A stretch of DNA of 64,000 nucleotides from Azolla caroliniana (Eukaryota > Plantae > Polypodiophyta): the NCBI GenBank assembly GCA_043228905.1, contig JBHGNT010000007.1, forward strand, positions 12,028,001-12,092,000, given 5' to 3'. The notes under the pieces are model-generated. The model did no database searches. It was not told where the DNA came from and saw only the letters and a program-made list of their open reading frames with translations. Positions 3,461 through 59,432 of this stretch are shown here, in pieces; the first letter of the stretch is position 1, and each line of letters opens with the position of its first letter. The translations under genes and the position numbers were made by a program.

Positions 3461-3470
3461 AACTCCCCCT

Positions 3471-6400: not shown

Positions 6401-7547
6401 GAACCTCCGGAACGTGTCGGACATCCTTCAGCAGCATTTTGCATCCGGTCGGGGTTGTCAACCACACGTCTCCGATGCCGGCAATCCGGCACGTACCTTC
6501 ATTTCCCATCCGAACACAGCCATGCTCACCGGCTGTGTAGGATGAGAAGTATCTTCTCTCCGGGGTCAGGTGGAACGATGCTCCGGAATCGACCACCCAG
6601 GTCGTCTCATCGCCGGCAATGTTTACTTCACTTTCTTCGGTGATGAGCATGATTTCTTCCTCACTTGCCGCGAGTGCCGTTGTTCCTTTCCGGTCCTGCC
6701 CTCGCCGATCCGAACCTCTCCGGTCCGTGGCTCCCCGGTATGCACCGTTTCTCTCCGGTGACTTCTTCGAATCGGTGTCATCGGCTCCGTTGTCTTTTCG
6801 GTAATGCCGACAATTCTTTCGGAAGTGCCCCGGCTTCCCACAGTGGAAGCATGTGGGCCTTCCTCTTGACTGTGACCGGGTCCCCGACTTCTCCCGTCTT
6901 TGCGGACTCCGGTTCCATTGTCTTCCCCGATCCGATTCGGTAAGCAGCGCCTTCGAGTCGGAGGCCGGTTCTTTATCTCTCCGACGCGCTTCTTCGTTCA
7001 AAATACTTGTCTTTACCGTTTGTAAGGACAAGTTATCTTCTGTGCAGGAGGTGCTGAGAGTCACCACCAAGTTCTCCCAGCTTTCCGGCAATGTACACAT
7101 CAGGATGATGGCTTGCATTGCATCCTCCAACGGGAACTTGATCGCCGCAAGCTGATTCACGAATCCCATGAACGTGCTTACGTGTTCCACCATACTCTCG
7201 CCGTCCCGGTACTTGAGATTCACTATCTTCCTCATCAGGGAGGTCCGGTTCAACGCATTCTTCCTCTCGTAGAGGCCCGACAGCTTCCGCCACATCTCAT
7301 ATGCGTTGGTGTCGTTCGCCACATGTTGTAGAACGCTCACGTCGACGTATTGCCGAATGGTTGCAACGGCTTTCCGGTTCAGAAGCCTCCATTCCGACTC
7401 AAGTACCCCTTTCGGTATTTCCGACCTGTCAATCGGTTCGTACAGGTCCCGAACAATCAGAAGATCCTCCATCTTGATCTTCCAGTCGGCGTAATTCTGC
7501 GCAGTCAGCACCATCATCCCTGGCTGCCCGCTGCCGCCGCCTTCCAT
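3471..7547 (-). pseudogene. Copia B gag-pol polyprotein with a single in-frame TAG at 4299-4301
   Basis: ORFs 4299-7622 and 3471-4298 are in the same frame. ATG (MEGGGSG) at 7547. Motifs: CFHCGKPGHFRKNC, WVVDSGAS, IRADNGGEY, LLYVDDMLI, GFTDSD and KHIQRRYHWIRE. Confidence 0.95.
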
Positions 7548-7562
7548 TTTCTGCAGCAACCC

Positions 7563-7574
7563 GCTCTGATACCA
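7563..7574 (-). promoter_or_regulatory. Primer binding site for tRNA-iMet (TGGTATCAGAGC), copia B
   Basis: Exact canonical motif 3 nt inside the 5' LTR. Confidence 0.95.
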
Positions 7575-7577
7575 GTT

Positions 7578-8188
7578 TGTTGGGAATCGACGCTTCGATT
7601 CACCTTCACCACTCGGCCACAACCGAGTAAGCGCGAATCAATGCAGCAGAAAATAGGAACCACAGAGAGAAACACACGAATGCACAGGGATTAACGTGGA
7701 AAACCCTATACGGGAAAAACCACGGGAGTACAAGACTCCAAACCAACACTATACAAAGAGAAGTATACAATGGCGAGCTGCAAGGCGACGACCTTGAGCT
7801 CGCTGTCCTCGCCACAGGCGGCGGAAATACACAGAGGCGTCGTCCTCTTCCTCTCCCACGCTCTATCTCTCTCTCTCTCTCACGGCTGCTCACTCTTCAC
7901 TCCTCTTGAGTGGAAAAACAGAAAAATGATCAACAACAGTAAAAACTATTTGCCCTAAGTCATATTTATACATATATGACTTTGGGGCTATTTACAGCTA
8001 TAGCCTCAGGGGCCCTTAGCAAAACGCTTTCACGGATATGTCCCTGCATCCGGATCTCTCTCCGGGTACATTCGTCATCCGGCTCCGAAGCCGGGGTCTT
8101 CATCATCTGGTTCCGAAACCGAAACCGGGCTTGTCGGCATTCAGTCCGACATCCGACTATCCCATCCGAAGGGACCGTAATCCCAACA
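7578..8188 (-). repeat. 5' LTR of copia B
   Basis: Direct repeat of 2850-3460. Confidence 0.96.
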
Positions 8189-14244: not shown

Positions 14245-14290
<46 letters not shown>

Positions 14291-14575
14291 CGATAAGAAA
14301 AGATATATATTATGTGAAGAAAATGTACAGTAGCTAGGAGGCTTAAGACTGACGTTGAACCGATTTGGTTCGAAATAATGCCTTGTGCCTCCTTTTATAG
14401 TGTTCTAAGGAATTCTCCTGAAGTTTCTAGAATGTTCCAGAGAAATCTGGAATGTACATCAATTTTCTATAATAAAACATAAATGAAAATAATATTTTAC
14501 ATATTACAATGTATAGTCTAATGGTCAAGAGCTTGACCCATGTAGCATAAGGTCATGGGTTCGAGTCTTGCCATA

Positions 14576-15591
14576 TCATGACACTATCTCCCCTTTAAAA
14601 CGACGAGTGTAACGAGTCGTTTTGGATTGAGGACCCGGTTTGTCTGGATATTGATGATGGAAGTCTTCAAGAAGAGCACGAGCATTGGTGACATTATCTA
14701 TCAGTTCCCAAGTACGCTCACTGGGATTATATCCTAGCCAATCGACTAGATAGTAGAGCTTGTTGCAAACAAGCTTGGAATCAAGGATGGCGGCAACCTC
14801 GTACTCAGGTCCATCTTCAAGCTCGATCAGGGGTGGAGGCTGTGTAATACATCCTGGGATGGTGCTCTCTTGATAGGGTTCGAGAAGAGAACTATGAAAA
14901 CACCGGATGTATCCAAAGTTGTGGAGGTAGATCAAGACGAAAAGCGACATCATTAATCTTTCCTATAACACGGAAATGACCTAATTGTCGATAATCCAAC
15001 TTCTCGCATGGGCGAGTAGTCTTGATGTGTCGTCGGAGTAGCCATACCCGATCTCCAATGTTAAAACTAGATGGGAGTCGATGACGATCCGCATAAACCT
15101 TGTGTGTTTGTTGAGCTTGTTGGAGATGAGTAGATAAATGCGCTTGTATCTTGCGTAACCTCTCCAAACAATCCTCTGCGCAAGGATTTGTGGACACCTC
15201 TAGGGTTTCAAGTACACATCACCGGGGGTGACATCCCGTATAAGCATAAAATGGTGTAACTTTAGTGGATGCGTGGATAGAGTTGTTATAGGCAAATTCA
15301 GCGAAGTGGAGAATATCTGCCTAGTCATCCTGATGATAGCTGAGAAAGCACCGTAGATACTACTCCAGCGTTTGATTGGTTCGTTCAGCTTGGCCGTCGG
15401 TTTGTGGGTGGTAGTTGGAGGAGAGGTTACAAGTGACCTTAAGCATGTTAAAAAGGTGCTTCCAGAATTTTGACACGAACTGGGGTCCACAGTCGCTGAT
15501 GATACTATCGGGAAGTCCATGATGCCGACATACTTCATGCATGACAATTTCAGCAGTGTCTTCATTGGAGATCTCCTTAATACATGGCAAG
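14576..15591 (-). pseudogene. D1 integrase C-terminus and chromodomain
   Basis: [13 protein letters not shown] and EYEVAAILDSK...YYLVDWLGYNPSERTWE. Confidence 0.9.
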
Positions 15592-18500
15592 TGTTGAGAG
15601 ACAAGCTCAACATCGGCCGGATCGGCTGAAGAAGCCGAGGACCGGATCAGTTGGGACCGATCGGTTAGGCCGAGTGCGTAAACCGGGAGGTCGTTAGGAA
15701 AGATATTCCGTGAGGAATATATTTGGGAGTTAGTGTAGGGGCTCTTGATGAGCATTGAAGTACTGTCAGTACTTCGGTCAGTCCTTTTAGGACTTGTATA
15801 AAAGTGCTCACTGAGCACGTCTTATGTACACAGAGATTGAGTATTATTGTGAAATATAGTTTTTTGTGTTCTCTCTCTCTGTCTCTCCTGCGTATACCGT
15901 GTAAGCTCAAGCTCTCCATTAAACCTTTGTTTCCTTCCTCTGTTCTGTCTTAATACCTGCTTCAGCATGCTACTTTCTTCATGGTATTAGAGCGCAAGGG
16001 TTGAGAACCTCTCTGCAGCCGACACAGCTTGACGAAGAAGAACAAGAAGAACGATTGATACAGGCATGGCGAGCTCGCTTCCAACAGAGAAGCTCGACAG
16101 AACCAACTACGCGTCTTGGTCCTACAAGATGCACCAGTACCTGCTCGGGCATGGCTATTGGAGTTATGTCGAAGGAGCTAATGACACGGCACCCGAATCG
16201 ACACACAGAGACTTCCCGTCGTGGGAGCAATCAGCGAGCAGGGTACTATACTGCTTCGCGTCGTTTGTGGGCGAACAACTATTGAGCTATGTTCGGGATG
16301 CAAAGACGCCAAAGGGTGCGTGGGAAAATCTGAAGAAGATTTTCGCCGCAAGCAACACAGCCAGGAAGCTTCAGATCCGACAGGAGTTGAGCAACCTACG
16401 ACAACGCGACTTGTCGATGGCGGACTATACCTCGAAGATCAAGGATATCAGCGACTCCCTCGCCTCCATAGAGGTGAAGATCGAGGAGAGCGAGATGGTC
16501 CAGATCTGTCTCGGAGGTTTGGCGTCGAAGTTCGGAGTGTTCCGAACGGCTGTGTGTACCCGGGAGAATACGCCGTCCTTTTTCGACTTACAGTCGATGC
16601 TCCTGGTAGAGGAGAACCACGCGGGTGCGTCGACAAGCACGCACACCGACAACAAGATGTTGTACATGGAGGGAGAAAGGCCCCGTGGTCGTGGCGGACG
16701 AGGCGAGTCAGTACGCAATGGAAGCGGCCGACGAGATCAAGGAAGAAGGCACCGATGTGATGCCGACAGCAACTCTGGACCCTCCGGAAACAGGGGGAGT
16801 CGAAGCGATGAGAACCGGCAAGGGAAGGCCATCGCGGAGTGCTGGTACTGTGCCAAGAAAGGCCATAGGGAAAGCGAGTGCTGGAAGAAGTGCGCCGATT
16901 CGGAGAGAACTGGTTTCGGGAACGGCTCCAGACATACCGACAAGGGAAATCGGCAGCGATCGCACTACGCCAAAGACTCCGGGAGAGCCGGAGAAGGGAC
17001 TGCCTTCGTGACGAGACACAAAGCAAACTCAATGAAGCAAACCACCCCGAGATCGGACCAGGTGTGGTACGTAGACTCCGGCGCGTCAAACCACATGACG
17101 AGCCATAAGGAGTGGTTCTCGTACCTTGAAAAACCGATACAACCTAGAGTAGTCGCAACAGGAGACGACACTCCGCATCCGATCGTGAATGTCGGAGAAG
17201 TTCCCTTTAGCCATGTCGGGTAGAAAGGGAAACTCATGAACGTGTTGCACGTTCCGACAATCACAAAATACTTGGTCTCGATCGGACAGATCGTCGACCA
17301 AGGGATGGAGGTTCGGTTTACACACCTCGGGTGCTTCATTGAGGAAGAAGGCCGTGTGATTGCGCAAGGGCACAGAGACGGGAGGATGTTCATCCTCGAC
17401 TCCACTGACGGCGGCACCGCAATGTTCGCGAAGGGACAAAAGACCGAGTCGGACATCGACTTGTGGCACAAGTGGATAGGCCACGTCAACTACCAGCGGC
17501 TTCAAGATCTGCAAACGAAACAGGTAGTGTTCGGATTGCCCAAATTTAGTGGCCGAAAGGCACAAATTTGTGAAGCCTGCCAGCTCGGGAAGCAACACCG
17601 ACTTCCTTTCCCCAATGAGCGAAACCGGAGCCGGAACAAGCTCAACCTTATACACTCCGATGTGTGGGGACCGGCACAAAACGTTAGTCTTGGCGGGAGC
17701 CGATATTTCGTCTCCTTCATCGACGACCACACGCGGCACACGTGGATCTACCTCATTGAGAGGAAGAGCGAAGTCTTCGACTGTTTCCGGGACCTCAAGG
17801 AGTTCGTGGAAACCGAAACGGGATGAAAGATCAAGTGCCTGCAGTCGGATGGCGGGAAAGAGTACTTTTCCGGTCAATTCAACGGTTATCTACAACAAAT
17901 GGGAATTCGGCGCGAATTCAGTTGTAGATACACACTGGAGCAGAACGGCGTGGCCGAGAGAAAGAATCGGTCGATTGTGGAAGCGGCACGGGCAATGCTG
18001 GAGGAGAAGAGCTTGCCCAAGTTCTACTGGGCCGAGGCAGTAAGGACCGCGGTATACATCCAGAACCGGATTGGAGACAAAGTGTCAGCGCACGAGCTAT
18101 ATTTCGGAACGAAGCCGAACTTGCGACACTTGAAGGTGTTCGGTAGCATTGCATATGTGCATATACCGAAGGAGAAAAGGAGGAAGCTGGACGCAAAGGC
18201 CGAGAAATGCATCTTGGTCGGTTACTCGGACGAGCAGAAGGGTTATAAGTGCTATAACCCTTGCACCAAACAAGCGCGTGTCAGCCGCGACGTTGTGTTT
18301 GACGAGTCCGCGTCTTGGTACCTGCCCCCGACTACGAACCTTGACTCCAATCCGAGTTCTGACGATGAGGTCAACGAGGCCGAGATGCCTCCGGATGAGC
18401 CCGAAATCGAGACCCGCGAAGAGAGTCCGATTTCATTCCGGTTAAGTGGACTGATTGGACGATTGAGTCGGTACGACCAGTCCGATGAGGAGCCGACGAG

Positions 18501-20653
18501 TAGTGGAGACTCGGCCGTGCATTCCCCGCGCAGGAAGCCGAGGAGACGGCTTACGCGCAAAGAGAAAGGGAAGAAGAAGGTGTCGGATTCCGGCACGGAA
18601 AGGAACGAGTCAGACCGATGCGAGTCTGACTCCGAGGGAACCGGTGACAGGTCTTTAAAGATGAAGACTGCGTCGACCGAGAAGGCCTCGACATCGGCTA
18701 ATGTGAGATTATGCCGATCTACCCGCCAAAAGAACCCAGTTGTGCGGTTCGGTTACAACGAGTACATGGCACATCATTATGCGTACATGACCCGCGTAGC
18801 GGAAGTGTGTGAGCCGGAGAGCTATGCAGAAGCGGCTAAAGACGCGAATTGGCGTGCCGCGATGGAGGAAGAGATGCACGCATTGGCGGAGAACGAGACC
18901 TGGGACCCGGTTGACGCACCGAAGGGTGTGAAGCCGATCGGGTGTAGGTGGGTGTACAAGGTCAAGTACAACACCGATGGCTCGGTCAACCGGTACAAGG
19001 CTCGGCTAATGGCAAAGGGCTACGCGCAGAAACACGACATCGACTACAATGAGACGTTTGCGCCGGTCGCGAAAATGACGACCTCCGTGTTTTGCTGGCA
19101 GTAGCTGCGGCGAAGGGGTGGCACTTACATCAGATGGATGTAAAGAATGTGTTCCTGCAAGGTGACCTTGAGGAACAGGTGTACATGGTACAGCCCCCCG
19201 GATTTCACTCCGAAACGAACTCCTCGGCAGTATGCCGACTGAAGAAGTCCCTTTACGGACTGAAACAAGCCCCGCGTGCCTGGAACGCGAAGATCATGCA
19301 ACAACTGCGTCGGATGGGCTTCGTCACGTTAAAATCGGACTCTTCCCTGTTCATCTGGAAAGGTCGACTCGGACCGGTTAGTATTTTACTATATGTTGAT
19401 GACTTGGTCATCACCGGCGCCGACCTAGGTGAAATCGACCGTGTGAAGCTCCAGCTTGCGGCATCGTTCAACATGAAGGATCTGGGAGACCTTCATTACT
19501 TCCTCGGGATCGAAGTGATCCGTACCCCCGAAGGCATATTGATCAGCCAACGTCATTACGTGCTGAATATGCTCTTCAAACTCGGGATGGCCAACTGTAA
19601 GTCCATCTCGACTCCTCTGGACAAAACCGTCAAGCTTCGTCCCGATACAGGAAAGGTATGCGACCCGATGAGGTTCCGACAAATTGTCGGAAACCTCATA
19701 TACTTGACCATCACCCGACCTGACCTCAGTTATCCGGTCGGGGTGATCAATCAGTTCATGGCGCGACCAACCGAGGAGCACCTTCAGTGTGCGCAACGCA
19801 TACTTCGGTATGTCAACGGCACTAAGGACCGGGGACTGCTATATCGGACCGATGCAGCCGCGCAGCTAGTCGGCTACACCGATGCTGATTGGGTTGGCAA
19901 CGCCGCCGATAGCCGATCCACGTCTGGATACGCGTTCTCCCTCGGGAGTGCCGCGATCGCGTGGAGCAGTAAGAAGCAGCCGACAGTTTCCCTGTCGAGC
20001 ACCGAAGCTGAGTACCGAGGAGCGGCTGTCGCAACATGCGAAGCCATCTGGTTGAAGCGGCTCCTTAAGGATCTGCAAGTGGAGGTGTCAAATCCGACGA
20101 CGATCTACTGCGACAACCTCAGCAGCATCCAGCTCGCGAAGAACCCCGTCTTCCATGCACGGACCAAGCACATTGAGGTGCACTACCATTTCGTTTGTGA
20201 GCGTGTCCTTTCCGGTGAAGTCGAACTTCAGTATGTTCCAACGGATCGGCAGGCTGCCGACATCTTCACCAAGCCTCTTGGTCTGGACAAGTTGCGGCAA
20301 TTCTCAGGTGCACTCGGATTGCGTCACCTTGACGTGCCGAACTTGAGGGGGAGAACAGTCTCGAACGACCAAGCAAAGGAGCAGGAAAGGAGCGGACACC
20401 GCGACACCGAGTCGGTTGTCGAGTTCGACATCGGATCGGCTGAAGAAGCCGAGGGCGGACCCACGGAAAGGTTCGGAAGTAGACAGAAGGGGAGCAACCG
20501 AAGGAGAGAGCCGATGCCAACCACGCATGGGGAAGATAACGCCATCGAGGGCGAGAAGACCGAAGACGAGTTGGAGACAGCCAACTCGGACGAGAGCGAA
20601 AACCGATCGGAGGTAGCCGAGTCGGTTCGGATGTTTGATTCAGACACGTTGAA
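15592..20653 (+). mobile_element. Ty1/copia element E (related to C); 5' LTR present, 3' LTR absent
   Basis: LTR 15592-15981 (TG...CA), PBS tggtattagagc at 15982-15993, and a complete gag-pol. It ends abruptly at 20653. Confidence 0.92.
16066..20653 (+). pseudogene. Copia E gag-pol with stops at 17221 and 17824 and a frameshift near 19085
   Basis: CWYCAKKGHRESEC, WYVDSGASNHM, SFIDDHTR, LLYVDDLVI, GYTDADW and ADIFTKPL, followed by an acidic C-terminal extension. Confidence 0.93.
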
Positions 20654-21700
20654 TTCACTGGAGATCTCCTTAGTACATGGCAAGAAATGAGCCATCTTCG
20701 TGTATCGATTGACCACCGCTAGAATTGCATTGAACCCCTTAGAGACTGGAAGATCTGTGATGAAGTCTAGAGCAATGGATTGCCACGGGTTGCTTGGAAT
20801 TGGTAATGGTTCTAATAAACCATATGGATGATGCCTTGGCATTTTCGTTCTGCAGCATGTATCACAAGTCCGAACAAAATCCTTGACAAATTGTCACATA
20901 CAGGGCCACCAGAATGATCGTTGTACTAAATGCAATGTTTTAGTACTACCAAAATGCCCAGTTGTATATGTGTCATGACAGTTTTGTACTACTTGAAGGC
21001 GGCAAGAACCATTAGGAACATACAAAAGTTCTTTAAAGAAGAGTAATCCATCATGGTATTTGAATTGCCGATAGTCCGTACCTGGTGGTTGCGACTGTGA
21101 ACACGACGCTCGAGAGGGATCAATTTGTGCTAGTATAGCTTGGGCGAACGCATCAGTCTTTTAGTCTTCGCGTATGGTATCGATAACGCGGGAATCCATG
21201 GGCATGTCAAAGATCTGTGTTGCTTGTAGTCATGCCAGTCCCAAGATGACTTGTTTTTGGTTATCGAAAGTTGGCTCGCCGGGACGGGGTGCTAGATACG
21301 AACGCCGTGATAATGGATCTGCCTTCCCTTGGTGCTTCCCCGGACGATATGTAATTTTGAAGTCGAAATGCATGAGGAAGTGGGCCCACCGAGCTTGACG
21401 TCGATTTAACACACGAGCATCCTGAAAGTAGGCAAGGTTCTTGTGGTCACTAAATACGGTGATCGGATGAGAGGATCCCTGCAGAAAATGCCTCCATTGC
21501 ATAAAAGAATCCACTATTACCAATAGCTCCTTATCATGAATTTCGTAGTTGATTTCGGCAGCGTCAAACTTGCGTGAGTGAAAAGCCACAGGATGTAGCT
21601 TCTCATCATTCCCTTGTTGTGACAGAATGCTCCCCAATGCAAAATCTGATGCGTCAGCTTCGATAATGAATGGTTTTTCCGGATCGGCATGAGCTAGAAT
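20654..21700 (-). pseudogene. D1 RNaseH and integrase N-terminus
   Basis: [16 protein letters not shown] and PWQSIALDFITDLP. Confidence 0.9.
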
Positions 21701-22105
21701 TACCGATTTGGTTCAAAATAATGCCTTGTGCCTCCTTTTATAGTGTTCTAAGGAATACTCCTGAAGTTTCTAGAATGTTCCAGAGAAATATGGAATATAC
21801 ATCAATTTTCTATAATAAAATATAAATGAAAATAATATTCTACGTATTACAATGTATAGTCTAATGGTCAAGAGCTCGGCCCATGTAGCATAAGGTCATG
21901 GGTTCGAGTCTTGCCATATCATGACAGTGTTTGCCCTAACTCATATTTATACTTATATGAACTTAGGGCTATTTACAAATATAGCCTCATTAGGATTACT
22001 CAAAACATATTCACAGATATGTCTTCTCTTCTGGTTCTCACCGGGTCCTCTTCATTCAACACCGGATCCCATCTGGAGGGACCGATTACCCAAAAATCTC
22101 CCCCT

Positions 22106-25035: not shown

Positions 25036-25205
25036 TCATTCCAGTGAAGAACGTGCACTTGGAGAAGTGCACTGATTGTCTGGCCGGTAAGCAAAACCGG
25101 ACCTCTTTCCGACCAAGGCCACCGATGAGACGTAATGCACCATTGGAGTTGGTGCATACGGATGTGTGTCAAGGGGACATGAAGTCACATGTAGGATCGC
25201 AGTAC
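25032..25205 (+). pseudogene. Inverted fragment of copia GAG-pre-integrase/integrase start (B-like)
   Basis: NLIPVKNVHLEKCTDCLAGKQNRTSF...LELVHTDVCQ on the + strand inside minus-strand F. Confidence 0.85.
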
Positions 25206-26728: not shown

Positions 26729-26805
26729 AAACGGCGAGACTCGAAAATTGTGGGGCCATCAACAGTTGAATTGGTTGCGGATATAAGGGTTGAGTTGGCG
26801 CTTGT

Positions 26806-26806
<1 letters not shown>

Positions 26807-26877
<71 letters not shown>
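26807..26877. repeat. (GA)n microsatellite in the G LTR
   Basis: Read directly from the sequence. Confidence 0.95.
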
Positions 26878-26879
<2 letters not shown>

Positions 26880-27313
26880 AGATAGAGAGATAATTGAAAA
26901 GGAATTATTATATTGAAGAGCAAATGGATTACAAAGAGTAGGCAACAGACTACTACAAAATGGCGTTGAACCAATTTAGGTTTGGGATGAGTGGTAGATC
27001 CCAATTTATAAGTAATAGAGAACACTCTAGAATATTCTAGGTTATCCTAGAATGTAGAGTAATCTAGAATATCTCTAGAGTATTCTAGAAGGTTCTAGTG
27101 TATAGAACACTCTAGAAAATTCTAGGTCATTCTAGAATGTAGAGTAATATAGAATATTCTTATGATATTAGATTTCATATTCTAAAAACTATACATACAA
27201 GAATATTAATACAATGGCTAAGGATTTGACATGTGTACAACAAGGTCGTGGGTTCAAATCCTTTCGAGGCATAATGTGAGTGTCATGATCCTTTCGATGC
27301 ATGATGTGAGTGT

Positions 27314-27449
27314 TATCATGACACTATCCCCCTTCTTCGACGACATGTCTCACAGGTTGTAGGGTTTGTATTAGGACCTGGTATCATGACACTATCCCCC
27401 TTCTTCGACGACATGTCTCACAGGTTGTAGGGTTTGTATTAGGACCTGG
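27314..27449. repeat. Perfect 68-bp tandem duplication spanning the LTR tip, PPT and pol end of G
   Basis: 27314-27381 equals 27382-27449. Confidence 0.93.
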
Positions 27450-28830: not shown

Positions 28831-31800
28831 TGTCAGGAGCAGTACTAAGACAGAGACGTATTGTCAGGAATAGTACTAAAACAGAGAAGGAGTTAGTACT
28901 AAAAGATGAGGATTAGTACTAAGGGAGGTGTAGAACTCTCGAGAGAAGGAAAGAGTGAGTGAGAGAGAGAGAGCGAGAGAGAGAGAGAGAATGAGGATAA
29001 CAAAAGATATATATTATTTTAAGGGAATATACAATAGTAGCTAGGAGGCTTAAGACTAGCGTTGAACCGATTTGGTTCAAAATAATGCCTTGTGCCTCCT
29101 TTTATAGTGTTCTCAGGAGTACTCCTGAAGTTTCTAGAATTTTCCAAAGAAATGTGGAATATACATCAATTTTCTATAGTAAAACTTAAATGAAAATAAT
29201 ATCCTTCGTATTACAACATATAGTCTAATGGTCAAGAGCTCGACCCGTGTAACATAAGGTCATGGGTTCACGTCTTGAAATATCATGACACTATCCTTCC
29301 TTTAAAACGACGAGTGTGATGAGTCGTTTTGGATTGAGGACCTGGTTTGTCTCGATATTAATGATGGAATTCTTCAAGAAGAGCACGAGCATTGGTCACA
29401 TTCTCTATTGGTTCCCAAGTACGCTCGCTGGGACTATATCCTAGCCAATCGACTAAATAGTAGAGCTTGTTGCGAACAATCTTGGAATCGAGGATGGTGA
29501 CAACCTCGTACTCAAGTCCATCTTCAAGCTCGATCGGGGGTGGAGGTTGTTTAATACGACCTGGGATGTTGCTGTCTTGATAGGGTTTGAGGAGAGAACT
29601 GTGAAACACTGGATGTATCCGAAGTTGTGGAGGTAGAGTGAGACGAAAAGCGATATCATTAATTTTTCCGATGATACGGAAAGGACCTAATTGCCGGTAA
29701 TCCAACTTCTCACATGGGCGAGTAGTCTTGATGTGTCATCATAGTAGCCACACCCAATCTCCAATGTCAAAACTGGATGGAAGTCAATGACGATCCGTGT
29801 AAACCTTCTGTGTTTGTTGAGCTTGCTGTAGATGAGTAGATAAATCCGTTTGTATCTTACGTAGATGCTCCAAACGATCCTCTGTCCAAGGATTTGTAGG
29901 TAACTCTAGGGTTCAAATACACACCACCGGGGGTGACAGCCCGTGTAAGCATAAAATGGTGTCACCATTGTTGATGAGTGGACAGAGTTATTATATGCAA
30001 ATTTGGTGAAGTGGAGAATATCCGCCTAGTCATCTTGATGATAGCTTAAAAAGCACCGAAGATACTGCTCCAGCGTTAGATTTGTTCGTTCTGCTTGGCC
30101 GTCTGTTTGCGGGTGGTAGCCGGAGGAGAGGTTACAAGTGACCTTAAGCATTTTAAAGAGGTGCTTCTAGAACTTCGTGACGAACTAGGGTCCACGGTCG
30201 CTGATGATACTATCAGGAAGGCCATGATGCCGACATACTTCATGCATGACAATTTCGGCGGTTTCTTCATTGGAGATTTCCTTAGTACATGGCAGGAAAT
30301 GGGCCATCTTCGTATATCGATCTACTACTGTTAAGATCGCATCGAATCCCTTAGAGATCGGAAGATCTGTGATGAAATCTAGGGCAATGGATTGCCATGG
30401 CTTGCTTGGAATTGGTAATAGTTCTAATAAACCATATGGATGATGCCTTGGCATTTTTGCTCTGCAACATGAATCACAAGTCCGAACAAAATCTTCGACA
30501 AATTGTCGCATATGGTGCCACCAGAATGATTGTTGTACTAAATCTAGTGTTTTGGTACTACCAAAATGTCCAGCTGTATATGTGTCATGATAGTTTTGGA
30601 CTACTTGAAGCCGACAAGTACCACTAGGAACATACAAGAGTTTGTTAAAGAATAGTAATTCATAATGACATTTGAATTGTTGATAGTCCGTACTTGGTTG
30701 TGGCAACTGTGAACAAGATGCTCAAGAGGGATCAATTTGTGCTAGAATGGCTTGAGCGAAAACATCTGTCTTCAAGTCCTCATGTATGGTATCGATAACA
30801 TGGGAATCCAAGGGCATACCGAAGACCTGCATTGCTTGTAGTCGTGCTGGTTCCAAGATTACTTGCTTTTGGTTATTGAAAGCCGGCTCGCCGGCTCACT
30901 GGGACGCCGTGCTAGATACGAATGCTGTGATAATGCATCTGCCTTCACTTGTTGCTTCCCCGGACGAATTTTGAAATTTGAAGTCGAAACGAGTGAGGAA
31001 TTGGGTGCACCGAGCTTAACGTCGATTTAATACACGAGCATTCTAAAAGTAGGCAAGGTTTTTGTGATCACTAAATATGATGACTTGATGAGATGACCCC
31101 CTCTAGAAAATGCCTCCATTGCGTAAAAGAGTCCACTATTGCTAATAGCTCCTTATCATGAATTTCATAGTTCATTTCTGCGGCGTCAAACTTGCGTGAA
31201 TGGAAAGCCACAGGATGTAGCTTTTCATCATCACCCCTATTGAGATAGAATGCTACCCAAGCTGAATTCCGACGCGTCTACTTCAATGATGAATGGTTTT
31301 TCTAGATCAACATAAGCTAAACTAGGAGCTGATGTAAATGCCTTCTTAAGACTCTCAAAAGCAATGTCCGCTTCTTCAGACCCAACGAACGATTTTCCCT
31401 TCGTAGTAAGTTGTGTGCGAGGCAGAACAAGCTTTGAGTAATCCTATATGAACTTGCAGTAAAAATTGGCAAAGCCTAAAAAGCATTGCACATCTCGCAA
31501 CGAACGCGGAGTTTGCCACTCTACCACCGTTTTGACCTTAGCTAGATCCATGGAGATGCCTTCCGAGGAAATGACATAGCCCAAAAATTCTACTTGGTTG
31601 CACCCGAAACTACATTATTCCAGTTTTGGATAAAGACCATGTTCTCGAAGTCGTTTTAGTACTAATAGTACATGAGAATCATACTCTTCTTGGGTCTTCG
31701 AATAAACCAGTAGATCATCCAAATAGATGATCAAAAAGTCATCCAAGAGATCTCAGAATATATCATTTGCCATGTGCTGGAAGACTGTTGGCGCATTAGT

Positions 31801-34138
31801 GAGGCTGAATGGCATGACCGTATACTCGAAGTGCCCATATATGGTCCAAAACATAGTCTTCCATTCATCTCCTAGTCGGATTCGTACAAGGTTATACGCT
31901 CCTCGTAAGTCAATCTTTGTGAAGAACCTTGCACCATTGATCCGTTCTAAAAGACTTGAGATAAGGGGAAGTGCATACCTATTCCTGATGGTGACTTTAT
32001 TCAACCGATGGTAATCTACGACGAGACGAAGTGATCCATCCTTTTTCTTGACGAAGAAAATGGGTGCGCCGGCTGGAGATTTCGAATGTCGAATGAAACC
32101 ATTTGCCAAATTCTCCTCTATATAGGCTCGAAGCACTTCTAGTTCGGTTGGTGACAAATTGTAGATTGGTCCCCGGTTGTAAATCGATGGGGCAATCATA
32201 CGGGTCGATGGTGAGGAAGCGTATTAGCTCGTACTTTATCGAACACATAGGCATAATGATGATACTTCTCTAGAAGTTGAACGGTGGACTCCTCTTTATT
32301 GATACTGGAGGGGTTTACTGATATTGCGAAGAGAAACATTTCTTCCTTGTGTCCTTCCTCACACAACTAATGTAGCAAAATGGTTGCAATGTTATGAGTA
32401 GATCCTCGGGTTTGTCGACACCATATTTCTCTTGTTCTCCAATCTATGGCTGAGTTATGTAATTCGAACCATGGTAATCCCAAAACAATGGGATGTTCTG
32501 GGATACTAATGGGCTGCATAGATCTAGGCTTGTCCAACCAAACAGTTCCTATTTTGGCTGGATTTAATCGTTTAACTCTTCTTCTAGTTGACTAAGGATT
32601 TCAAATTTGTTTGAAAGGCTTGGGTTATTAGGACTATCAGACACACCTAGAGAAATAGACTCGGGTTTAGTACTATTAATACTAGCGGTTAATTGATATA
32701 CCTATCTTTTCTGCCGATGGGGGTAGTTCACTACAATATGCGTCGGTCCACCGCAATAAAGACATAATCAATTTGCCTTGCTTCGCTGCTTTTCTTCTTC
32801 CGATAGTGGTCCACGACGACGTGTGGTGTCAATTTCCATTGGAGATGTATTGAATGACTCCTTTGGGAAAGGCTTTGCTACGATTGAAGCGTAGGTGGGA
32901 TCCGATCTTGTTCGTGGCATTTGGAACTATCGTTCCAAACGTCGTTCGAAGAGGAGATTATCGCATCGCACCGCACGACTGATTGCTTCTGTCAATGACT
33001 TTGGCTCCTCAGGTAAATTTAAGCATAAGCCGAGGCCGGCCACTCACCTTGGCACAATCTTCGAATTTTGTTGATTGATGTCCTAACACTGTCGGTATCT
33101 CCAAAACAAGCTTTAAACTCGGTAATAAACTCTTTGAAATTATTTAACAAGGGAGAGCTTTTTCCTAAGATGGGGGGGAACCATGCCAAAGCCGTGTCAT
33201 TAAGTAGAGTGCTTACTAGTTCCACTCGTGATGCGTCGGTGGGATATCAAGAAGGATGCATTTGAATGACTAATCGTACCTGATTAAGGAATCCTCTAAA
33301 TTGCGATCGTGTTTCATCAAATTTCATGGGAAGGACGATCTTGGGTTCTTTATGAATCCCTTGCATACTAGGTCCTTGTTGTTGCATCGCTACTAAGGTT
33401 GCTTCAAGTTGTTGCATGCGTACCACTAGTTCCCCATGTTGTTGTTGTGTCTGCCGCTTTTCTAAGGAGATTTGTTGAAGATCCCCCAACAACCATTGAT
33501 TTTCTTGTTCCAAAGCAAGGAACTTCTCCTTCAAGCATTGCAGCTCTGAGAAAATGGATTGATATTCTTGAGCGCTAATAGTGGCCATAGTATGAGAGAA
33601 AAGAGGAATAAGAGATTAGTATGAAGGGAGGGAGAAGGAAGAAGATAAAGGAAGAGAAGGAAGGAGAGAAAAATCGGTTCAAACTATCAGGAGTAGTACT
33701 AAGACAAAGAAGTACTGTCAGGAATAGTACTAAAACTGAGAAGGAATTAGTACTAAAAGATGAGGATTAGTACTAAGGCAGGTATAGAACTCTCGAGAGA
33801 AGGAAAGAGTGAATGAGAGAGAGAGAGATCAAGAGAGAATTAGGATAACAAAAGATATATATTATGTTAAGGTAATATACAATAGTAGCTAGGAGGCTTA
33901 AGACTGGCGTTGAACCGATTTGGTTCGAAACAATGCCTTGTGCCTCCTTTTATAGTGTTCTCAAGAGTACTCCTGAAGTTTCTAGAATGTTCCAGAGAAA
34001 TCTGGAATATACATCAATTTTCTATAGTAAAACTTAAATGAAAATAATATCTTTCGTATTATAACATATAGTTTAATGGTCAAGAGCTCAACCCATGTAA
34101 CATAAGGTCATGGGTTCGAGTCTTGTCATATCATGACA
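28831..34138 (-). mobile_element. Chromovirus D2 nested in G, degenerate, protease deleted
   Basis: LTRs at 28831-29290 and 33685-34138. TSD GAAAC/GAAGC (4 of 5 match). Gag starts MATISAQEYQ at 33588; RT, RH, INT and chromodomain remnants follow. Confidence 0.92.
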
Positions 34139-39855: not shown

Positions 39856-40104
39856 TTTGGTATCAGATTTTTTTACTAATGTTTCTTTGTTTTTCATTTG
39901 TCTTTTGATTGATGCTGATCGATCATTGTGCGGTTGGCCTTGATCCAGACAACGATCAACAAAGAACTTCGGTAACTCTTTCCATATTTTTTTTTCTATT
40001 CTCTCTTCTCCCATCTAATCATGTGTTTAGTTTATATGTAATTTTTTTCATTAAATCAATGATGTTGTAGTGGTCTTTAATTGATTATCTAAAACGTTTA
40101 CATA

Positions 40105-53749: not shown

Positions 53750-54045
53750 TGTCATGATATGGCAAGACTCGAACCCATGACCTTAACTTATATGGGTTGA
53801 GCTCTTGACCATTAGATCATCTATTGTAATACGTAGGATATTATTTTCATTTACATTTTATTATAGGAAATTAGTGTATATTCCAGAGTTCTCTGGAACA
53901 TTCTAGAAACTTTAGGATTACTCCTGAAAACACTATAAAAGAGAGCACTAGGCATTATGTTGAACCAAATTGGTTCAACGCTAGTCTTAAACCTTTTAGC
54001 CACCATTGTATATTCTCTTCATATAATACATATCTTTCTTATCAT

Positions 54046-54090
<45 letters not shown>

Positions 54091-54268
54091 CGTCTCGCTC
54101 ACTTCTTCCTTCTCTCGAAGAAGTTCTACACCTCTCATAGTACTAATCCTTCGTTTAGTACTAATTCCTTCTCTGTCTCAGTACTGTTCCTGACAGTTTG
54201 AACCAATTTTCCTACCTTCTGTCTCTTTCATTTCCTACTAATCGTTTATTCCTCTTTTCTTTCATCCC

Positions 54269-55420
54269 ATGGCCACTGTTAGCGCTGAAGAATATCAATC
54301 TGTTTTCTCAAAATTTCAATGCTTGAAGGAGAAGTTCCATGCTTTGGAACAAGAAAACCAACGGTTGCTGGGGGATCTTCAGCAAATCTCCTTAGAAAAG
54401 TAGCAAACGCAACAACAGCATGGGGAACTTGCGTTACGCGTGCAACAACTCGAAGCAACCATTGTAGCGATGCAACAACAAGGGCCCAGAACACAAGGGA
54501 TTCATAAAGAACCCAAGATTGGCCTTCCCACGAAGTTCGATGGAACGCGATCGCAGTTTAGAGGGTTCCTTAACTAGGTACGATTAGTTATTCAAATGCA
54601 TCCTTCCCGATATCCCACCGATGCATCACGAGTGGGTTTAGTAGGCACTTTGTTAAGTGGCTCAGCGTTGTCATGGTTCGCTCCACTATTAGAAAAGGAA
54701 TCTCCGTTACTCAACAATTTTGAAGAGTTTCTAGGGGAGTTTAAAGCATGTTTCGGAGATACTGACAGCATCAGGACCGCAATCAACAAAATCCGGTGAT
54801 TACGCCAAGGTGACCGTCCAGCCTCCGCATACGCTGCAGATTTTCGCCTACTCGCTGCTGATATCCCTTGGGATGATCAAGCGTTGATGGTGCAATTCCG
54901 TTATGGTTTATGCAACGACGTCAAGGATTTACTCTTGACCTTCCCCGAAGAGCCAAAGTCCTTAACAGAAGCAATCAGTCGCGCGGTGAGATGTGACAAC
55001 CGCCTCTTTGAGTGACGTTCGGAACGACAGCTACAGATGCCGAGGGCAAGATCAGAGCCCACCTACGCCTCAGTGGTAGCAAGACCTTTTCCGAGGGAGT
55101 CATATAATGCGCCTCCAGGGAATACTCCGACTCCGATGGAGAATGACACTGCACGTCGTCGAGGGCCATTATCTGAAGAAGAAAAGCAGCGACGTCGTCG
55201 AGGGCCATTATGTCTTTACTGCGGTGGACCAGGACATATCGCAATAAATTGCCCCCATAGGCCAAGAAGATAGGTAAACCAAATAGTCGCTAGTTCTAAT
55301 TGTACTAAACTCGAGCCTATTTTAGTAGGGATATTTGATAGTCCTAATAGTACTAATATCCCAGATCTAGCAAACAAATTTGATGTCCTTAGTCAGTTAG
55401 AAGAAGAGTTAAACGACTAA
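54269..55420 (+). pseudogene. D3 gag (Sushi/Tf1-like), several stops
   Basis: EPKIGLPTKFDGTRSQFRGFL, LSGSALSWF and CLYCGGPGHIAINC. Confidence 0.88.
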
Positions 55421-55452
55421 GTCCAGCCAAAATAGGAGCCGTTTGGTTGGAC
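55408..55452 (+). promoter_or_regulatory. Putative -1 ribosomal frameshift signal (G TTA AAC, 6-nt spacer, 11-bp stem-loop)
   Basis: Pol is in the -1 frame relative to gag. gtccagccaaa pairs with tttggttggac. Conserved in D2 at ~32531-32577. Confidence 0.72.
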
Positions 55453-58400
55453 AGCCCTAGATCTGTGCAACCCATTAGTGGTTCCATTCCCTCTAAGCAA
55501 GTTAGTGATGTGTTCGTAGCCCAAGTAATAGTTAGTACTAAAAGTACCCCTCCAGTACATGTCCTAGCACTCCTAGATTCCGGAGCTAACTCTTGCTTTA
55601 TGGATAAGAAATTTGCTCAAGCTCATAAGATATCCCTAAGAAAACTCCAGTGTCCAGCCTCTGTAGTAGTCATTGATGGACGTCCCATTGCTTCCTAAAA
55701 TATCATAGAAGAGTCAGAGCCCATTAATATTGTCCTAGATAACTTAGCATGTGTAGTATCATTTAATATTATTACTATCCCAGAACATCCTATAGTTTTA
55801 GGATTACCTTGGTTCGAGTTAAATAACCCAGACATAGATTGGAGAACAAGAGCAATCCGGTGTCGACAAACCCAAGGGTCAACTCAGAAGATGGCAACCA
55901 TTTCGCTACGTCAGTTGCGTAAAGAAGGGCGCAAGGAGGAAATGTTCCTCTTTGCAATATTAGTAAACCCGTCCAACACCACTAAAGAAGAATCCACCGT
56001 TCAACTTCCCCAGAAGTATCGTCATTTCGCCGATGTGTTCGATAAAGTACAAGCCAACACAGTTCCTCATCATCAACCGTACGATTGCCCCAACGATTTA
56101 CAACCGGGAAAAGAGCCGCCATGGGGACCGATCTACAATTTGTCACCAACCGAGCTGGAAGTCCTTCGGGCCTATATAGAGGAGAATTTGGAAAATGGTT
56201 TCATTCGGCATTCGAAATCTCCAGCCGGCGCGCCCATTTTCTTCGTCAAGAAAAAGGATGGATCGCTTCGTCTCGTTGTAGATTACCGTGGCTTGAATAA
56301 GGTTACAATCAGGAATAGGTATGCTCTTCCCCTTATCTCAAGTCTTTTAGAACGGATCAATGGTGCCAGGTTCTTCACGAAGATCGACTTACGGGGGGGA
56401 GCATATAATCTCGTACGGATCCGACCAGGAGACGAATGGAAGACCGCGTTTCGCGCCAGATATGGGCACTTCGAGTATACAGTCATGCCGTTCAGCCTCA
56501 CTAATGCGCCGGCAGTCTTCCAGCACATGGCTAATGATATATTCCGAGATCTATTGGATTATTGTTTGATCATCTATTTGGATGATCTACTGGTTTATTC
56601 AAAGACCCAAGAAGAACATGATTCTCATGTACTATTAGTACTAAAACGACATCGAGAACATGGTCTGTATGCAAAGCTGGAAAAATGTAGTTTCGGATGC
56701 AACCAAGTGGAATTTCTCGGCTACATCATTTCGTCAGAAGGCATCTCCATGGACCTAGCTAAGGTCAAAACAGTGGTAGAATGGCAGACTCCGCGTTCGG
56801 TGCGGGATGTGCAATGCTTCCTAGGCTTTGCCAATTTTTACCGGAAGTTCATACAAGATTACTCAAAGATCGTTCTACCTCTCACACAACTTACCAGGAA
56901 GGGACAACCGTTCATCTCGTCTGAAGAAACGGACATGGCTTTCGAGAGTCTTAAAAAGGCATTTACATCGGCTCCAATTCTAGCTCATGTCGATCAGGAA
57001 AAACCATTCATTATTGAAGCTGACGCATTGGATTTTGCATTGGGGAGCATTCTGTCACAACAGGGGAATGATGAGAAGCTACATCCTGTGGCTTTTCACT
57101 CACGCAAGTTTGACGCCGCCGAAATCAACTACGAAATTCATGATAAGGAGCTATTGGCAATAGTGGATTCTTTTATGCAATGGAGGCATTTTCTGGAGGG
57201 ATCCTCTCATCCAGTCATTGTATTTAGTGACCACAAGAATCTTGCCTACTTTCAGGATGCTCGTGTATTGAATCGATGTCAAGCTCGATGGGCCCACTTC
57301 CTCACGCGTTTCAACTTCAAAATTACATATCGTCCGGGGAGGCACCAAGGGAAGGCAGATGCGTTATCACGTCATTCGTATCTAGCACCCCGTCCCAGTG
57401 AGCCAGCTTTCGATAACCAAAAACAAGTCATCTTGGGACCGACACGACTACAAGCAACAAAGATCTTTGACATGCCTCTGGATTCCCGCGTTATCGATAC
57501 CATATGTGAAGACTTGAAGACAGATGTGTTCGCCCAAGCTATACTAGCACAAATTGATCCCTCTCGAGCGTCGTGTTCACTGTCACAACCACCAGGTACG
57601 GACTATCGGCAATTCAAATACCATGATGGATTACTCTTCTGTAAAGAACTTTTGTATGTTCCTAATGGTTCTTGCCGCCTTCGAGTAGTACAAAACTGTC
57701 ATGACACATATACAGCTAGGCATTTTGGTAGTACTAAAACATTACATTTAGTACAACGATCATTTTGGTGGCCCTGTATGCGACAATTTGTCGAGGATTT
57801 TGTTCGGACTTGTGATACATGTTGCAGAGCGAAAATGCCAAGGCATCATCCATATGGTTTATTAGAACCATTACCAAGTCCAAGCAAGCCGTGGCAATCC
57901 ATTGCTCTAGACTTCATCACAGATCTTCCAGTCTCTAAAGGGTTCAATGCGATTCTAACGGTGGTCGATCGATATACGAAGATGGCTCATTTCTTGTCAT
58001 GTACTAAGGAGATCTCCAGTGAAGACACTGCGAAATTGTCATGCGTGAAGTATGTCAGCATCATGGACTTCTCGATAGTACCATCAGCGACCGTGGACCC
58101 CAGTTCGTGTCAAAATTCTGGAAGCACCTCTTTAACATGCCCAAGGTCACTTGTAACCTCTCCTCCGGCTACCACCCACAAACCGACGACCAAGCTGAAC
58201 GAACAAATCAAACGTTGGAGCAGTATCTGCGGTGCTTTCTCAACTATCATCAGGATGATTGGGCAGATATTCTCCACTTCGCCGAATTTGCCTATAACAA
58301 CTCTATCCACGCATCCACTAAAGTTACGCCATTTTATGCTTATACGGGATGTCACCCCCGGTGGAGTGTACTTGAAACCCCAGAGGTGTCCATAAATCCG

Positions 58401-59006
58401 TGCGCGGAGTATCATTTGGAGCGGTTACGCAAGATACAAGCGGATTTATCTACTCATCTCCAACAAGCTCAACAAACACACAAGGTCTACGCGGATCGTC
58501 ATCGACTTCCATCCAGTTTTAATATTGGAGATCGGGTGTGGCTGCTACGACGACACATCAAGACTACTTGCCCATGTGAGAAGTTGGATTATCGGCGATT
58601 AGGTCCTTTCCGTATTATTGGACAGATTAATGATGTCGCTTTTCGTCTCGATCTACCTCCTCAACTTCGGATACATCCGGTGTTTCAAAGTTCTCTCCTC
58701 GAACCCTACCACGAGAGCACCATCCCAGAACGTCTTATCCAACCTCCACCCCCGATCGAGCTTGAAGATGGGCCGGAGTACGAGGTTACCGCCATCCTTG
58801 ATTCCAAGATTGTTCGTAACAAGCTCTACTATCTAGTCGATTGGCTAGGCTATAGTCCCAGCGAGCGTACTTGGAAACTGATTGAGAATGTGACCAATGC
58901 TCGTGCTCTTCTTGAAGCCTTCCATCGTCAATATCCACACAAACCGGGTCCTCAATCCAAGATGACTCGTGACACTCGTCGTTTTAAAGGGGGGATAGTG
59001 TCATGA
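55415..59006 (+). pseudogene. D3 pol (PR-RT-RH-INT-chromodomain); stop at 55696 and frameshift near 58035
   Basis: [39 protein letters not shown] and EYEVTAILDSK..LVDWLGY. Confidence 0.93.
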
Positions 59007-59432
59007 TATGGCAAAACTCGAACCCATGACCTTAGGTTATATGGGTCGAGCTCTTGACCATTAGATCATCTATTGTAATACGTAAAATATTATTTTCATT
59101 TACATTTTATTATAGGAAATTAGTGTATATTCCAGAGTTCTCTTGAACATTCTAGAAACTTTAGGATTACTCCTGAAAACACTATAAAAGAGGGCACTAG
59201 GCATTATGTTGAACCAAATTGGTTCAACGCCAGTCTTAAACCTTTTAGCCACCATTGTATATTCTCTTCATATAATACATATCTTTCTTATCATCACTCA
59301 CTCTCTCTCTCTCTCTCTCTTTCTCTCCGTCTCGCTCACTTCTTCCTTCTCTCGAAGAAGTTCTACACCTCTCATAGTACTAATCCTTCGTTTAGTACTA
59401 ATTCCTTCTCTGTCTCAGTACTGTTCCTGACA

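What the first reader, a model, noticed from the sequence alone, without database searches (positions are those of the whole stretch)
14514..14570. Antisense tRNA-like (Pol III A-box/B-box) cassette in the U3 tip of chromovirus LTRs, conserved across two families
Seen: D1 and D2 LTRs carry TAGTCTAATGG...AGGTC-ATGGG-TTCGAGT-C or a close variant. That reads as a tRNA A box, the classic AGGUC variable loop and a T-loop/B box. The distance from T8 to T54 is 46 nt, as in a standard tRNA. Copies are at 14514, 21857, 29221 and 34069; D3 has more degenerate minus-strand copies at ~53763-53819 and ~59012-59068. The otherwise divergent G LTR has the same cassette with the same 46-nt spacing (27207-27261: TAATACAATGG...AGGTCGTGGGTTCAAATCC). 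The acceptor and anticodon stems are not preserved, so the promoter boxes rather than the cloverleaf appear to be what is kept. The cassette is antisense to the element. Known analogue: Cassandra TRIMs carry 5S-derived Pol III promoters in their LTRs, and TFIIIC-bound B boxes act as chromatin barriers in yeast. Inference: this is either a TFIIIC insulator shielding the LTR promoter in heterochromatin, or a Pol III antisense promoter reading from the 3' LTR into the PPT and chromodomain. These elements also lack a tRNA PBS. I do not know of a description of this, but I cannot search the literature.
Basis: partly seen in the sequence, partly recalled or inferred. Interest (0 to 1): 0.85.

Follow-up and report, generated by a model that had tools for sequence, protein, structure and literature searches.

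The report
Backward tRNA promoter inside retrotransposon ends
A whole branch of plant (likely moss) jumping genes keeps, at the outer tip of each terminal repeat and facing outwards, the promoter letters of a tRNA gene but not its fold, which likely recruits the tRNA-gene transcription factors and may keep the element's own promoter open inside silent chromatin.

Summary
All seven cassettes lie at the stated coordinates, antisense, at the U3 tip of Tcn1-type chromovirus LTRs. Among 77 relatives chosen by protein alone, 56 of 59 assessable loci of this branch carry the cassette. None of 9 more distant elements does (six look like RLG1), nor do published RLG1 and SM-Tcn1 LTRs by eye. Across 21 LTR clusters, tRNA positions 8-9, 14-21, 44-48 and 52-61 and a 45/46-nt T8-T54 spacing are kept. 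Stems, anticodon arm and flanks diverge, with no covariation, no Rfam tRNA hit and no default-threshold ARAGORN hit. That pattern fits the published TFIIIC contacts, including +44 to +47, and an AT-rich block lies where TFIIIB would load. Best reading (inferred, untested): a DNA-level Pol III type-2 promoter pointing away from the Pol II TATA 107-189 nt inward, acting as a barrier or open-chromatin module. The missing tRNA PBS is ordinary, because these elements self-prime like Tf1. The nearest known case, Helenus TRIMs, has sense cassettes in non-autonomous elements. I found no expression or binding data.

The parts
14514..14567 (+). Cassette (tRNA positions 8-61) in the D1 3' LTR, antisense to the element
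   Evidence: a-priori score 14/14
21857..21910 (+). Cassette in the D1 5' LTR remnant
   Evidence: 14/14
27207..27260 (+). Cassette in the G 3' LTR
   Evidence: 13/14
29221..29274 (+). Cassette in the D2 3' LTR (B box damaged in this copy)
   Evidence: 13/14
34069..34122 (+). Cassette in the D2 5' LTR
   Evidence: 14/14
53766..53819 (-). Cassette in the D3 5' LTR
   Evidence: 13/14
59015..59068 (-). Cassette in the D3 3' LTR
   Evidence: 12/14
53750..59432 (+). D3 chromovirus, both ends intact: LTRs 53750-54195 and 58999-59432 (97.7% identical), 5-bp target-site duplication
53837..53856 (-). AT-rich block at -30 to -11 of the cassette in the D3 5' LTR; inferred TFIIIB site
   Evidence: family-wide AT 0.83 vs 0.60; coordinates derived from T8
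53896..53908 (+). Three-unit heat-shock-element-type array in U3
   Evidence: HSE consensus recalled
53934..53940 (+). TATA box of the element's Pol II promoter, 33 nt before the self-primer
53967..53978 (+). 12-nt self-primer at the inferred start of R
54198..54209 (+). Primer-binding site complementary to the self-primer, 2 nt after the 5' LTR
55699..58395 (+). RT, RNase H and integrase zinc-finger frame of D3
58023..59006 (+). Integrase C-terminus, SH3 and chromodomain frame of D3
58981..58998 (+). Polypurine tract before the D3 3' LTR
28831..34138 (-). D2 chromovirus: 5' LTR 33685-34138, 3' LTR 28831-29290 (93% identical), self-priming PBS after the 5' LTR
14248..21926 (-). D1 chromovirus, broken: 5' LTR remnant 21702-21926, 3' LTR 14248-14583 cut by a copia element, another copia element nested inside
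26800..27323 (-). G 3' LTR (left end approximate), TATA at 27010, self-primer at 26977

Best explanation
The cassette is a conserved, tRNA-like Pol III type-2 promoter facing outwards at the U3 tip of one Tcn1-type chromovirus branch, and it likely works as DNA, by binding TFIIIC and loading TFIIIB, which would keep the element's own Pol II promoter open against neighbouring heterochromatin. Shown: position, orientation, lineage-wide conservation of positions 8-9, 14-21, 44-48 and 52-61 and of the 45/46-nt spacing, loss of the fold, an AT-rich block at -30 to -11, a TATA box 107-189 nt further in, and self-primer/PBS complementarity. Inferred: (1) origin by capture of a tRNA gene or tRNA-derived SINE head, probably once; (2) TFIIIC binding and TFIIIB loading (about 0.75); (3) benefit as a barrier or nucleosome-poor edge at the 5' LTR, pointing away from the Pol II start so the two polymerases would not collide. 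Some Pol III read-out is likely a by-product.
For: Identity among 21 cluster medoids: 44-48 0.82, 52-61 0.73, 14-21 0.69, 8-9 0.66, against 10-13 0.35, 27-43 0.39, 62-72 0.36, 1-7 0.33 and upstream 0.38. T55, A58, G46 and T47 are invariant, and positions 9, 48 and 57 vary only by transition. No stem covaries (row-permutation p 0.07-0.75 for the four full stems). Spacing is 45 or 46 in 21 of 21 cluster representatives with 44-50 allowed, while box-to-tip distance ranges 11-63 nt. Yeast TFIIIC contacts a base upstream of the B box, changes at +44 to +47 alter binding and transcription, the A box is needed to position TFIIIB, and 32 bp is the commonest A/B distance (PMC11724288, passages). AT at -30 to -11 is 0.83 vs 0.60, higher in 16 of 17, where plant TFIIIB binds (PMC13578239 section 20). 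Among 1250-2361 family contigs per run in 4 DNA runs, no listed box-column variant exceeds 15%, while 8 non-box columns reach 20% or more. Chromodomain integrases are thought to target heterochromatin (PMC7466625, passages). tRNA genes have insulator activity in yeast and animals (PMC11346459, passages).
Against: There are no binding, chromatin or transcript data: three RNA runs laid nothing, and one possible-RNA run gave only divergent contigs. G10 of the standard A box is not kept (T is commonest, 0.52). CAA (4 of 20) and TATA words (7 of 20) upstream are not enriched over shuffles. The AT block could instead serve the adjacent heat-shock elements. RLG1, the most abundant element of P. patens, and SM-Tcn1 lack the cassette (by eye), so it is not needed for Tcn1 success. 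The B box carries a CpG that decays (7-10% C56 to T), and methylation impairs TFIIIC binding (PMC11346459). TFIIIC tolerates A/B distances up to 93 bp, so the strict spacing is only partly explained. Clusters are related, so p-values are optimistic. under-reports near the LTR tip: position 61, where the reference itself deviates, was not listed.
Confidence: 0.5

Rival explanations
1. The cassette is a TFIIIC/TFIIIB-bound promoter, but the selected function is its antisense Pol III transcript, which reads from the 3' LTR across the PPT into the chromodomain and tunes copy number or silencing.
For: The A box and AT-rich block are kept, which a B-box-only site would not need. A T4 run lies between position 59 and the LTR tip in 9 of 21 clusters, against 5.0 in shuffles (p 0.03). 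Only 1 of 21 cassettes has an internal T4.
Against: Distance from +1 to the first T4 ranges from 33 to 1650 nt across 21 clusters, and five of six D copies have none inside the LTR. There is no conserved RNA fold (median z -0.7). No transcript was seen.
Confidence: 0.17
2. The genomic RNA uses these U3 stretches to pair with the D, variable and T loops of a host tRNA, as the Ty3 bipartite PBS does, to aid packaging, circularisation or strand transfer.
For: The sense RNA is complementary to tRNA loops and sits in U3. Ty3 pairs the T and D arms of its primer tRNA with U3 (PMC5371799, passages). This reading would explain the fixed spacing.
Against: These elements self-prime. Positions that identify one tRNA (10-13, 49-51, 62-72) diverge to 0.35-0.46 identity. 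There is no G:U-wobble bias: tolerated G>A 9/126 and T>C 9/147, against non-tolerated C>T 9/63 and A>G 7/105. No tRNA 3' end or CCA is kept. With two real plant tRNAs from L026 only about 15 of 22 positions could pair (two tRNAs only).
Confidence: 0.12
3. It is a neutral relic of an old tRNA or SINE insertion, carried along in the LTR.
For: Kojima notes that 'not a few' Repbase LTRs hold partial tRNA similarity (PMC10886601). RLG1-like relatives do without it.
Against: Neutral decay would erode box and non-box columns alike. Here non-box columns have fallen to about 0.35-0.46 identity while box columns stay at 0.66-0.82, and indels are confined to one D-loop position in cluster representatives.
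Confidence: 0.06
4. TFIIIC bound to the cDNA ends tethers the integration complex to Pol III sites or to other copies and steers insertion, as in Ty3.
For: The site lies within about 120 nt of the cDNA end. Pol III-directed targeting is known for Ty3 (search listing).
Against: No B-box core lies in the 150-nt outer flank of three 5' LTRs; one of two 3' flanks has one at 140 nt. The integrase has a chromodomain. Only five flanks were examined.
Confidence: 0.08
5. What matters is a long hairpin just after the PPT, and the tRNA likeness is incidental.
For: D copies fold strongly (antisense z -2.3 to -5.2), and G keeps part of the stem.
Against: Only 5 of 21 clusters reach z < -2 on the antisense strand and 4 of 21 on the sense strand; the median is -0.7.
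Confidence: 0.03

Closest known systems
Helenus TRIMs (Kojima 2024, PMC10886601; parts 1-4 of 6, figure legends and supplement passages read)
   Same: tRNA-derived sequence in both LTRs, conservation centred on boxes A and B, mostly not a functional tRNA, promoter role inferred and untested.
   Different: Helenus is non-autonomous, 311-1263 bp long, with tRNA-type PBSs. In the consensus sequences I saw, including Selaginella Helenus-1_SMo, the tRNA part is in sense, mid-LTR, and is thought to transcribe the element. Here the carriers are autonomous 5.3-5.7 kb elements with a separate TATA promoter, and the cassette is antisense at the U3 tip. The paper expects autonomous partners not to share such LTR sequence.
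Cassandra and Ajax TRIMs (as described in PMC10886601)
   Same: Small-RNA-derived Pol III promoter maintained inside an LTR.
   Different: 5S-derived type-1 promoter that drives the element's own RNA (shown for Cassandra); non-autonomous.
Tcn1-clade chromoviruses: SM-Tcn1 and P. patens RLG1 (PMC2864245 passages and supplement 3; PMC6317226 passages; PMC7466625 passages and supplement)
   Same: Chromodomain integrase, 5-bp TSD, no tRNA PBS, self-priming. By eye, SM-Tcn1 has the same PBS/self-primer layout as the D family.
   Different: Neither the SM-Tcn1 LTR nor the first 400 nt of the RLG1 transcript shows the cassette (by eye). None of 9 distant loci with a visible LTR tip has it.
Ty3 bipartite primer-binding site (PMC5371799, passages)
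   Same: U3 sequence complementary to tRNA T and D arms.
   Different: Ty3 pairs with one primer tRNA. These elements self-prime, and only generic tRNA positions are conserved.
tDNA insulators and extra-TFIIIC (ETC) sites (PMC11346459, passages; barrier details recalled)
   Same: Proposed mode of action.
   Different: Those are host loci in yeast and animals. ETC sites lack TFIIIB, whereas this cassette keeps the A box and an AT-rich upstream block and travels inside a retrotransposon.

Membership tests
Tcn1 chromovirus | Ty3/gypsy pol with C-terminal chromodomain | tested here: met
   Pfam hits; aromatic-cage residues visible in alignment A2, (cage positions recalled)
Tcn1 chromovirus | No tRNA PBS; predicted self-priming | tested here: met
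   12-nt primer/PBS complement in D2, D3 and loci of clusters 4, 8, 11, 16, 20, 23, with covarying sequence; 83% of Tcn1 self-prime
Tcn1 chromovirus | 5-bp target-site duplication | tested here: met
   D3 exact, D2 4 of 5
Tcn1 chromovirus | Phylogenetic placement with reference Tcn1 proteins | tested here: inconclusive
   Reference proteins could not be put in the tree; likeness to SM-Tcn1 and of L066 to RLG1 is by eye
Helenus / TRIMp3 | Non-autonomous, short element | tested here: not met
   D3 is 5.7 kb with pol domains
Helenus / TRIMp3 | tRNA-like sequence in both LTRs with conserved A/B boxes | tested here: met
Helenus / TRIMp3 | Pol III promoter oriented to transcribe the element | tested here: not met
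   antisense here; sense in the Helenus consensus sequences seen
tRNA gene | Cloverleaf with paired, covarying stems, U33/R37 loop | tested here: not met
Pol III type-2 promoter | B box with conserved 53-58 and 61 | tested here: met
   majority frequency 0.76-1.0; position 57 always a purine
Pol III type-2 promoter | A box T8 R9 G10 A14 G18 G19 | tested here: inconclusive
   all kept at 0.81-1.0 except G10
Pol III type-2 promoter | AT-rich upstream TFIIIB site; CAA motif; terminator | tested here: inconclusive
   AT block met; CAA and TATA words not enriched; terminator weak and variable
Pol III type-2 promoter | TFIIIC/TFIIIB/Pol III occupancy and transcript | not testable with these tools
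   only assembled contigs were served; uninformative
Ty3-type bipartite PBS | tRNA-primed element with U3 complementary to that tRNA | tested here: not met
   self-priming; no tRNA-specific conservation or wobble bias

The most novel reading that the evidence does not exclude
An autonomous, heterochromatin-seeking retrotransposon lineage has domesticated a tRNA-gene promoter as a portable TFIIIC/TFIIIB chromatin barrier at its own border, and so spreads Pol III factor sites through the host's heterochromatin; this would be the first mobile tDNA-type insulator and the first tDNA barrier in plants that I know of.
Probability: 0.35. Interest if true: 0.87.

Novelty: new variant of a known kind. 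Interest (0 to 1): 0.7.

Why it matters
Elements whose chromodomain steers them into silent chromatin must still be transcribed there, and how they manage is open. A built-in, outward-facing Pol III factor site is a concrete, mutable candidate. It comes with a natural control, because RLG1-like sister elements lack it. It would also make tDNA-type insulation testable in a plant and would add many candidate TFIIIC sites to these genomes. It extends Pol III promoter capture from tiny non-autonomous elements to full-length ones, in a new role.

Tried and rejected
No whole genome is held, so no genome-wide LTR alignment or insertion-site test was possible. Rfam and ARAGORN found no tRNA signal. 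Relaxed ARAGORN hit 0 of 21 tips at 95% and 90%, 1 of 21 at 85% (1 of 420 shuffles) and 4 of 21 at 80% (16 of 420 shuffles). The long hairpin was rejected as the conserved feature. A B-box-like word inside the D self-primer was rejected as a second promoter: it changes register or disappears in other clusters. Pairing of self-primer with the cassette was rejected by eye, as they do not covary. The viral-contig scan found nothing. The genome-contig scan gave one short contig, L077, without an LTR. RNA runs X15, X16 and X20 laid nothing, and X23 may be DNA; this is no evidence either way. Cluster look-up gave no host names, so 'moss' is inferred from the published range of Tcn1. My early note calling the distant loci 'likely fungal' was wrong for six or seven of them, which look like RLG1. 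The tree is the quick version; the careful search did not finish. Literature searches found no description of this cassette. One search, for an HIV-1 U3 tRNA-like sequence that I recall, found nothing, so that parallel is unverified. Repbase/REXdb records and large or .doc supplements of PMC6317226 and PMC2864245 could not be read and may annotate it.

Full report
Setting. The window is a nest of LTR retrotransposons. The D and G elements are Ty3/gypsy chromoviruses. D3 (53750-59432, +) has both ends, LTRs 97.7% identical and a 5-bp duplication. D2 (28831-34138, -) has LTRs 93% identical. D1 and G are broken. No whole genome was available. The host is inferred to be a moss or club-moss from the published range of Tcn1 (PMC6317226, passages).

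Observation. The seven cassettes are at the stated places, all antisense, 16 nt (D) or 62 nt (G) inside the LTR tip, with T8-T54 = 46 nt. The copia LTRs and the F-family LTRs, which have a tRNA-Met-type PBS (motif recalled), give no matrix hit. There is no cloverleaf: ARAGORN found 0 and Rfam gave no tRNA hit at E<=10.

Relatives chosen without bias. I searched with the integrase C-terminus and chromodomain only (alignment A2). The metagenome scan confirmed 296 relatives, kept the best 80 and gave 76 loci; one more came from genome contigs. Of the 77, nine cannot be assessed: seven end too early, L052 is interrupted before its LTR, and L077 lacks an LTR. Nine are distant elements with a visible LTR tip (L046, L048, L049, L053, L055, L058, L063, L066, L071), and none has the cassette. 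Of the other 59, 56 have it; L040, L060 and L073 are deleted or interrupted at that spot. The matrix was trained on 21 sequences (20 of these loci and the window's G LTR), so that count is partly circular. The independent test follows.

A-priori test. Sixty-three LTR tips of at least 100 nt (56 loci, 7 window copies) form 23 clusters at 75% identity. I scored only standard tRNA promoter positions (14 points). In 17 of 21 in-branch clusters the first member beat dinucleotide shuffles at p<=0.05; 0 of 2 distant clusters did; sense-strand scores were 8-11, near the shuffle mean of about 9.4. Spacing was 45 or 46 in all 21, with 44-50 allowed, while the distance to the tip ranged 11-63 nt. In a quick IQ-TREE tree of 75 rows (79 of 82 sequences gave a segment of 120 aa or more; 4 duplicates dropped), a 62-row clade (SH-aLRT 99) holds 52 carriers, 3 damaged copies and 7 unassessable rows. 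Two more carriers, L045 and L050, sit at an unresolved node beside it. One origin is likely but not shown.

What is conserved. Mean pairwise identity among 21 medoids is 0.66 at positions 8-9, 0.69 at 14-21, 0.82 at 44-48 and 0.73 at 52-61, against 0.33-0.46 for all other blocks. None of the four full stems covaries (p 0.07-0.75; T-stem pairs 49-52 alone reach p 0.05 for Watson-Crick pairs but 0.33 with G:U), nor does the 15-48 pair; U33 is lost. The strong hairpin of the D family is family-specific (5 of 21 below z -2). Contigs of four DNA runs laid on the D3 tip show variants concentrated in non-box columns, with the caveat that the table under-reports near the tip.

Mechanism. Conservation of 44-48, outside the textbook B box, first looked odd. 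The yeast TFIIIC-tRNA-gene structure explains it: a winged-helix residue contacts a base upstream of the B box, and changes at +44 to +47 alter binding and transcription. The same paper shows the A box is needed to position TFIIIB and that 32 bp is the commonest A/B distance (PMC11724288, passages; human B-box contacts in PMC11811891, passages). An AT-rich block at -30 to -11 (0.83 vs 0.60, 16 of 17) lies where plant TFIIIB binds (PMC3082873 passages; PMC13578239 section 20). CAA and TATA words are not enriched, and G10 is not kept. I infer a DNA-level type-2 promoter. U3 reads, from the tip: cassette, AT block, heat-shock-type array (9 of 16 long tips, shuffle mean 0.05), TATA 107-189 nt from the cassette's +1 (10 of 21 medoids where found), self-primer. 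The cassette sits between flanking DNA and the Pol II promoter and points away from it. A barrier or open-chromatin role is the most economical benefit for an element thought to target heterochromatin (PMC7466625, passages; PMC11346459, passages). This step is inference. No conserved terminator distance was found (33-1650 nt), though T4 runs before the tip are slightly enriched (9 of 21 vs 5.0).

The missing PBS. A 12-nt stretch 33 nt after the TATA is the exact complement of the sequence 2 nt after the 5' LTR in D2 and D3, and the two covary across clusters and in distant relatives without the cassette. Self-priming is predicted for 83% of Tcn1 elements and is described for Tf1 (bioRxiv 2022.12.06.519325, passages). 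It is ordinary, and it weakens the Ty3-like rival (PMC5371799, passages), as does the absence of wobble bias.

Comparison and novelty. Helenus TRIMs are the closest known case but are non-autonomous with sense cassettes. That paper notes other Repbase LTRs with partial tRNA similarity and does not analyse them in the parts I read. SM-Tcn1 and RLG1 lack the cassette by eye. Searches returned no description, judged from listings, in a library limited to open-access papers. Two look-ups of earlier findings were empty. A third listed a different lineage whose PPT is replaced by a tRNA 3' end; here the PPT is intact and no tRNA 3' end is kept.

Verdict. The feature is real and lineage-wide, and its conservation pattern implies selection. 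It is a new variant of Pol III promoter capture in LTRs. TFIIIC binding is likely (about 0.75); the barrier role is the best guess (0.5). Interest 0.7.

Noticed in passing
window 53896-53908, 59145-59157, 14420-14437, 27083-27095; loci: U3 carries perfect three-unit heat-shock-element-type arrays (consensus recalled) in all 7 window LTRs and 9 of 16 long medoid tips, against a shuffle mean of 0.05; likely heat-inducible elements.
   Followed up: partly
window 53955-53982 and 59204-59231; loci L005, L023, L037, L022, L025: The last bases of U3 can pair with the 3' copy of the self-primer in many clusters but not all, which could mask the 3' R copy from competing for the PBS.
   Followed up: partly
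PMC2864245 supplement 3 (SM-Tcn1 record): By eye, SM-Tcn1 has a 12-nt self-primer complementary to the bases after its 5' LTR, although the paper reports no evidence for self-priming.
   Followed up: partly
L026 552-627 and 831-906: Two genuine plant-type tRNA genes (Asn, Thr), facing each other, beside a 5'-truncated chromovirus fragment; probably incidental.
   Followed up: partly
window 39401-46417: F-family chromovirus with two 455-nt LTRs 100% identical and an open 1479-aa frame: a very recent insertion, without the cassette.
   Followed up: no
window 2847-8188: Copia element with 614-nt LTRs 99.7% identical, also recent; its long pol frame ends at a stop near 4299 and continues in the next frame listed.
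   Followed up: no
window 27317-27458: Tandem duplication of about 71 nt spanning the G element's PPT and LTR tip, plus a short internal repeat that pushes the cassette 62 nt from the tip.
   Followed up: no
window 24678-25184: Long inverted repeat in a copia integrase region; it explains the sub-threshold Rfam MIR5638 match.
   Followed up: no
L077: An RLG1-like plant retrotransposon fragment filed in a Streptomyces assembly; probably contamination.
   Followed up: no
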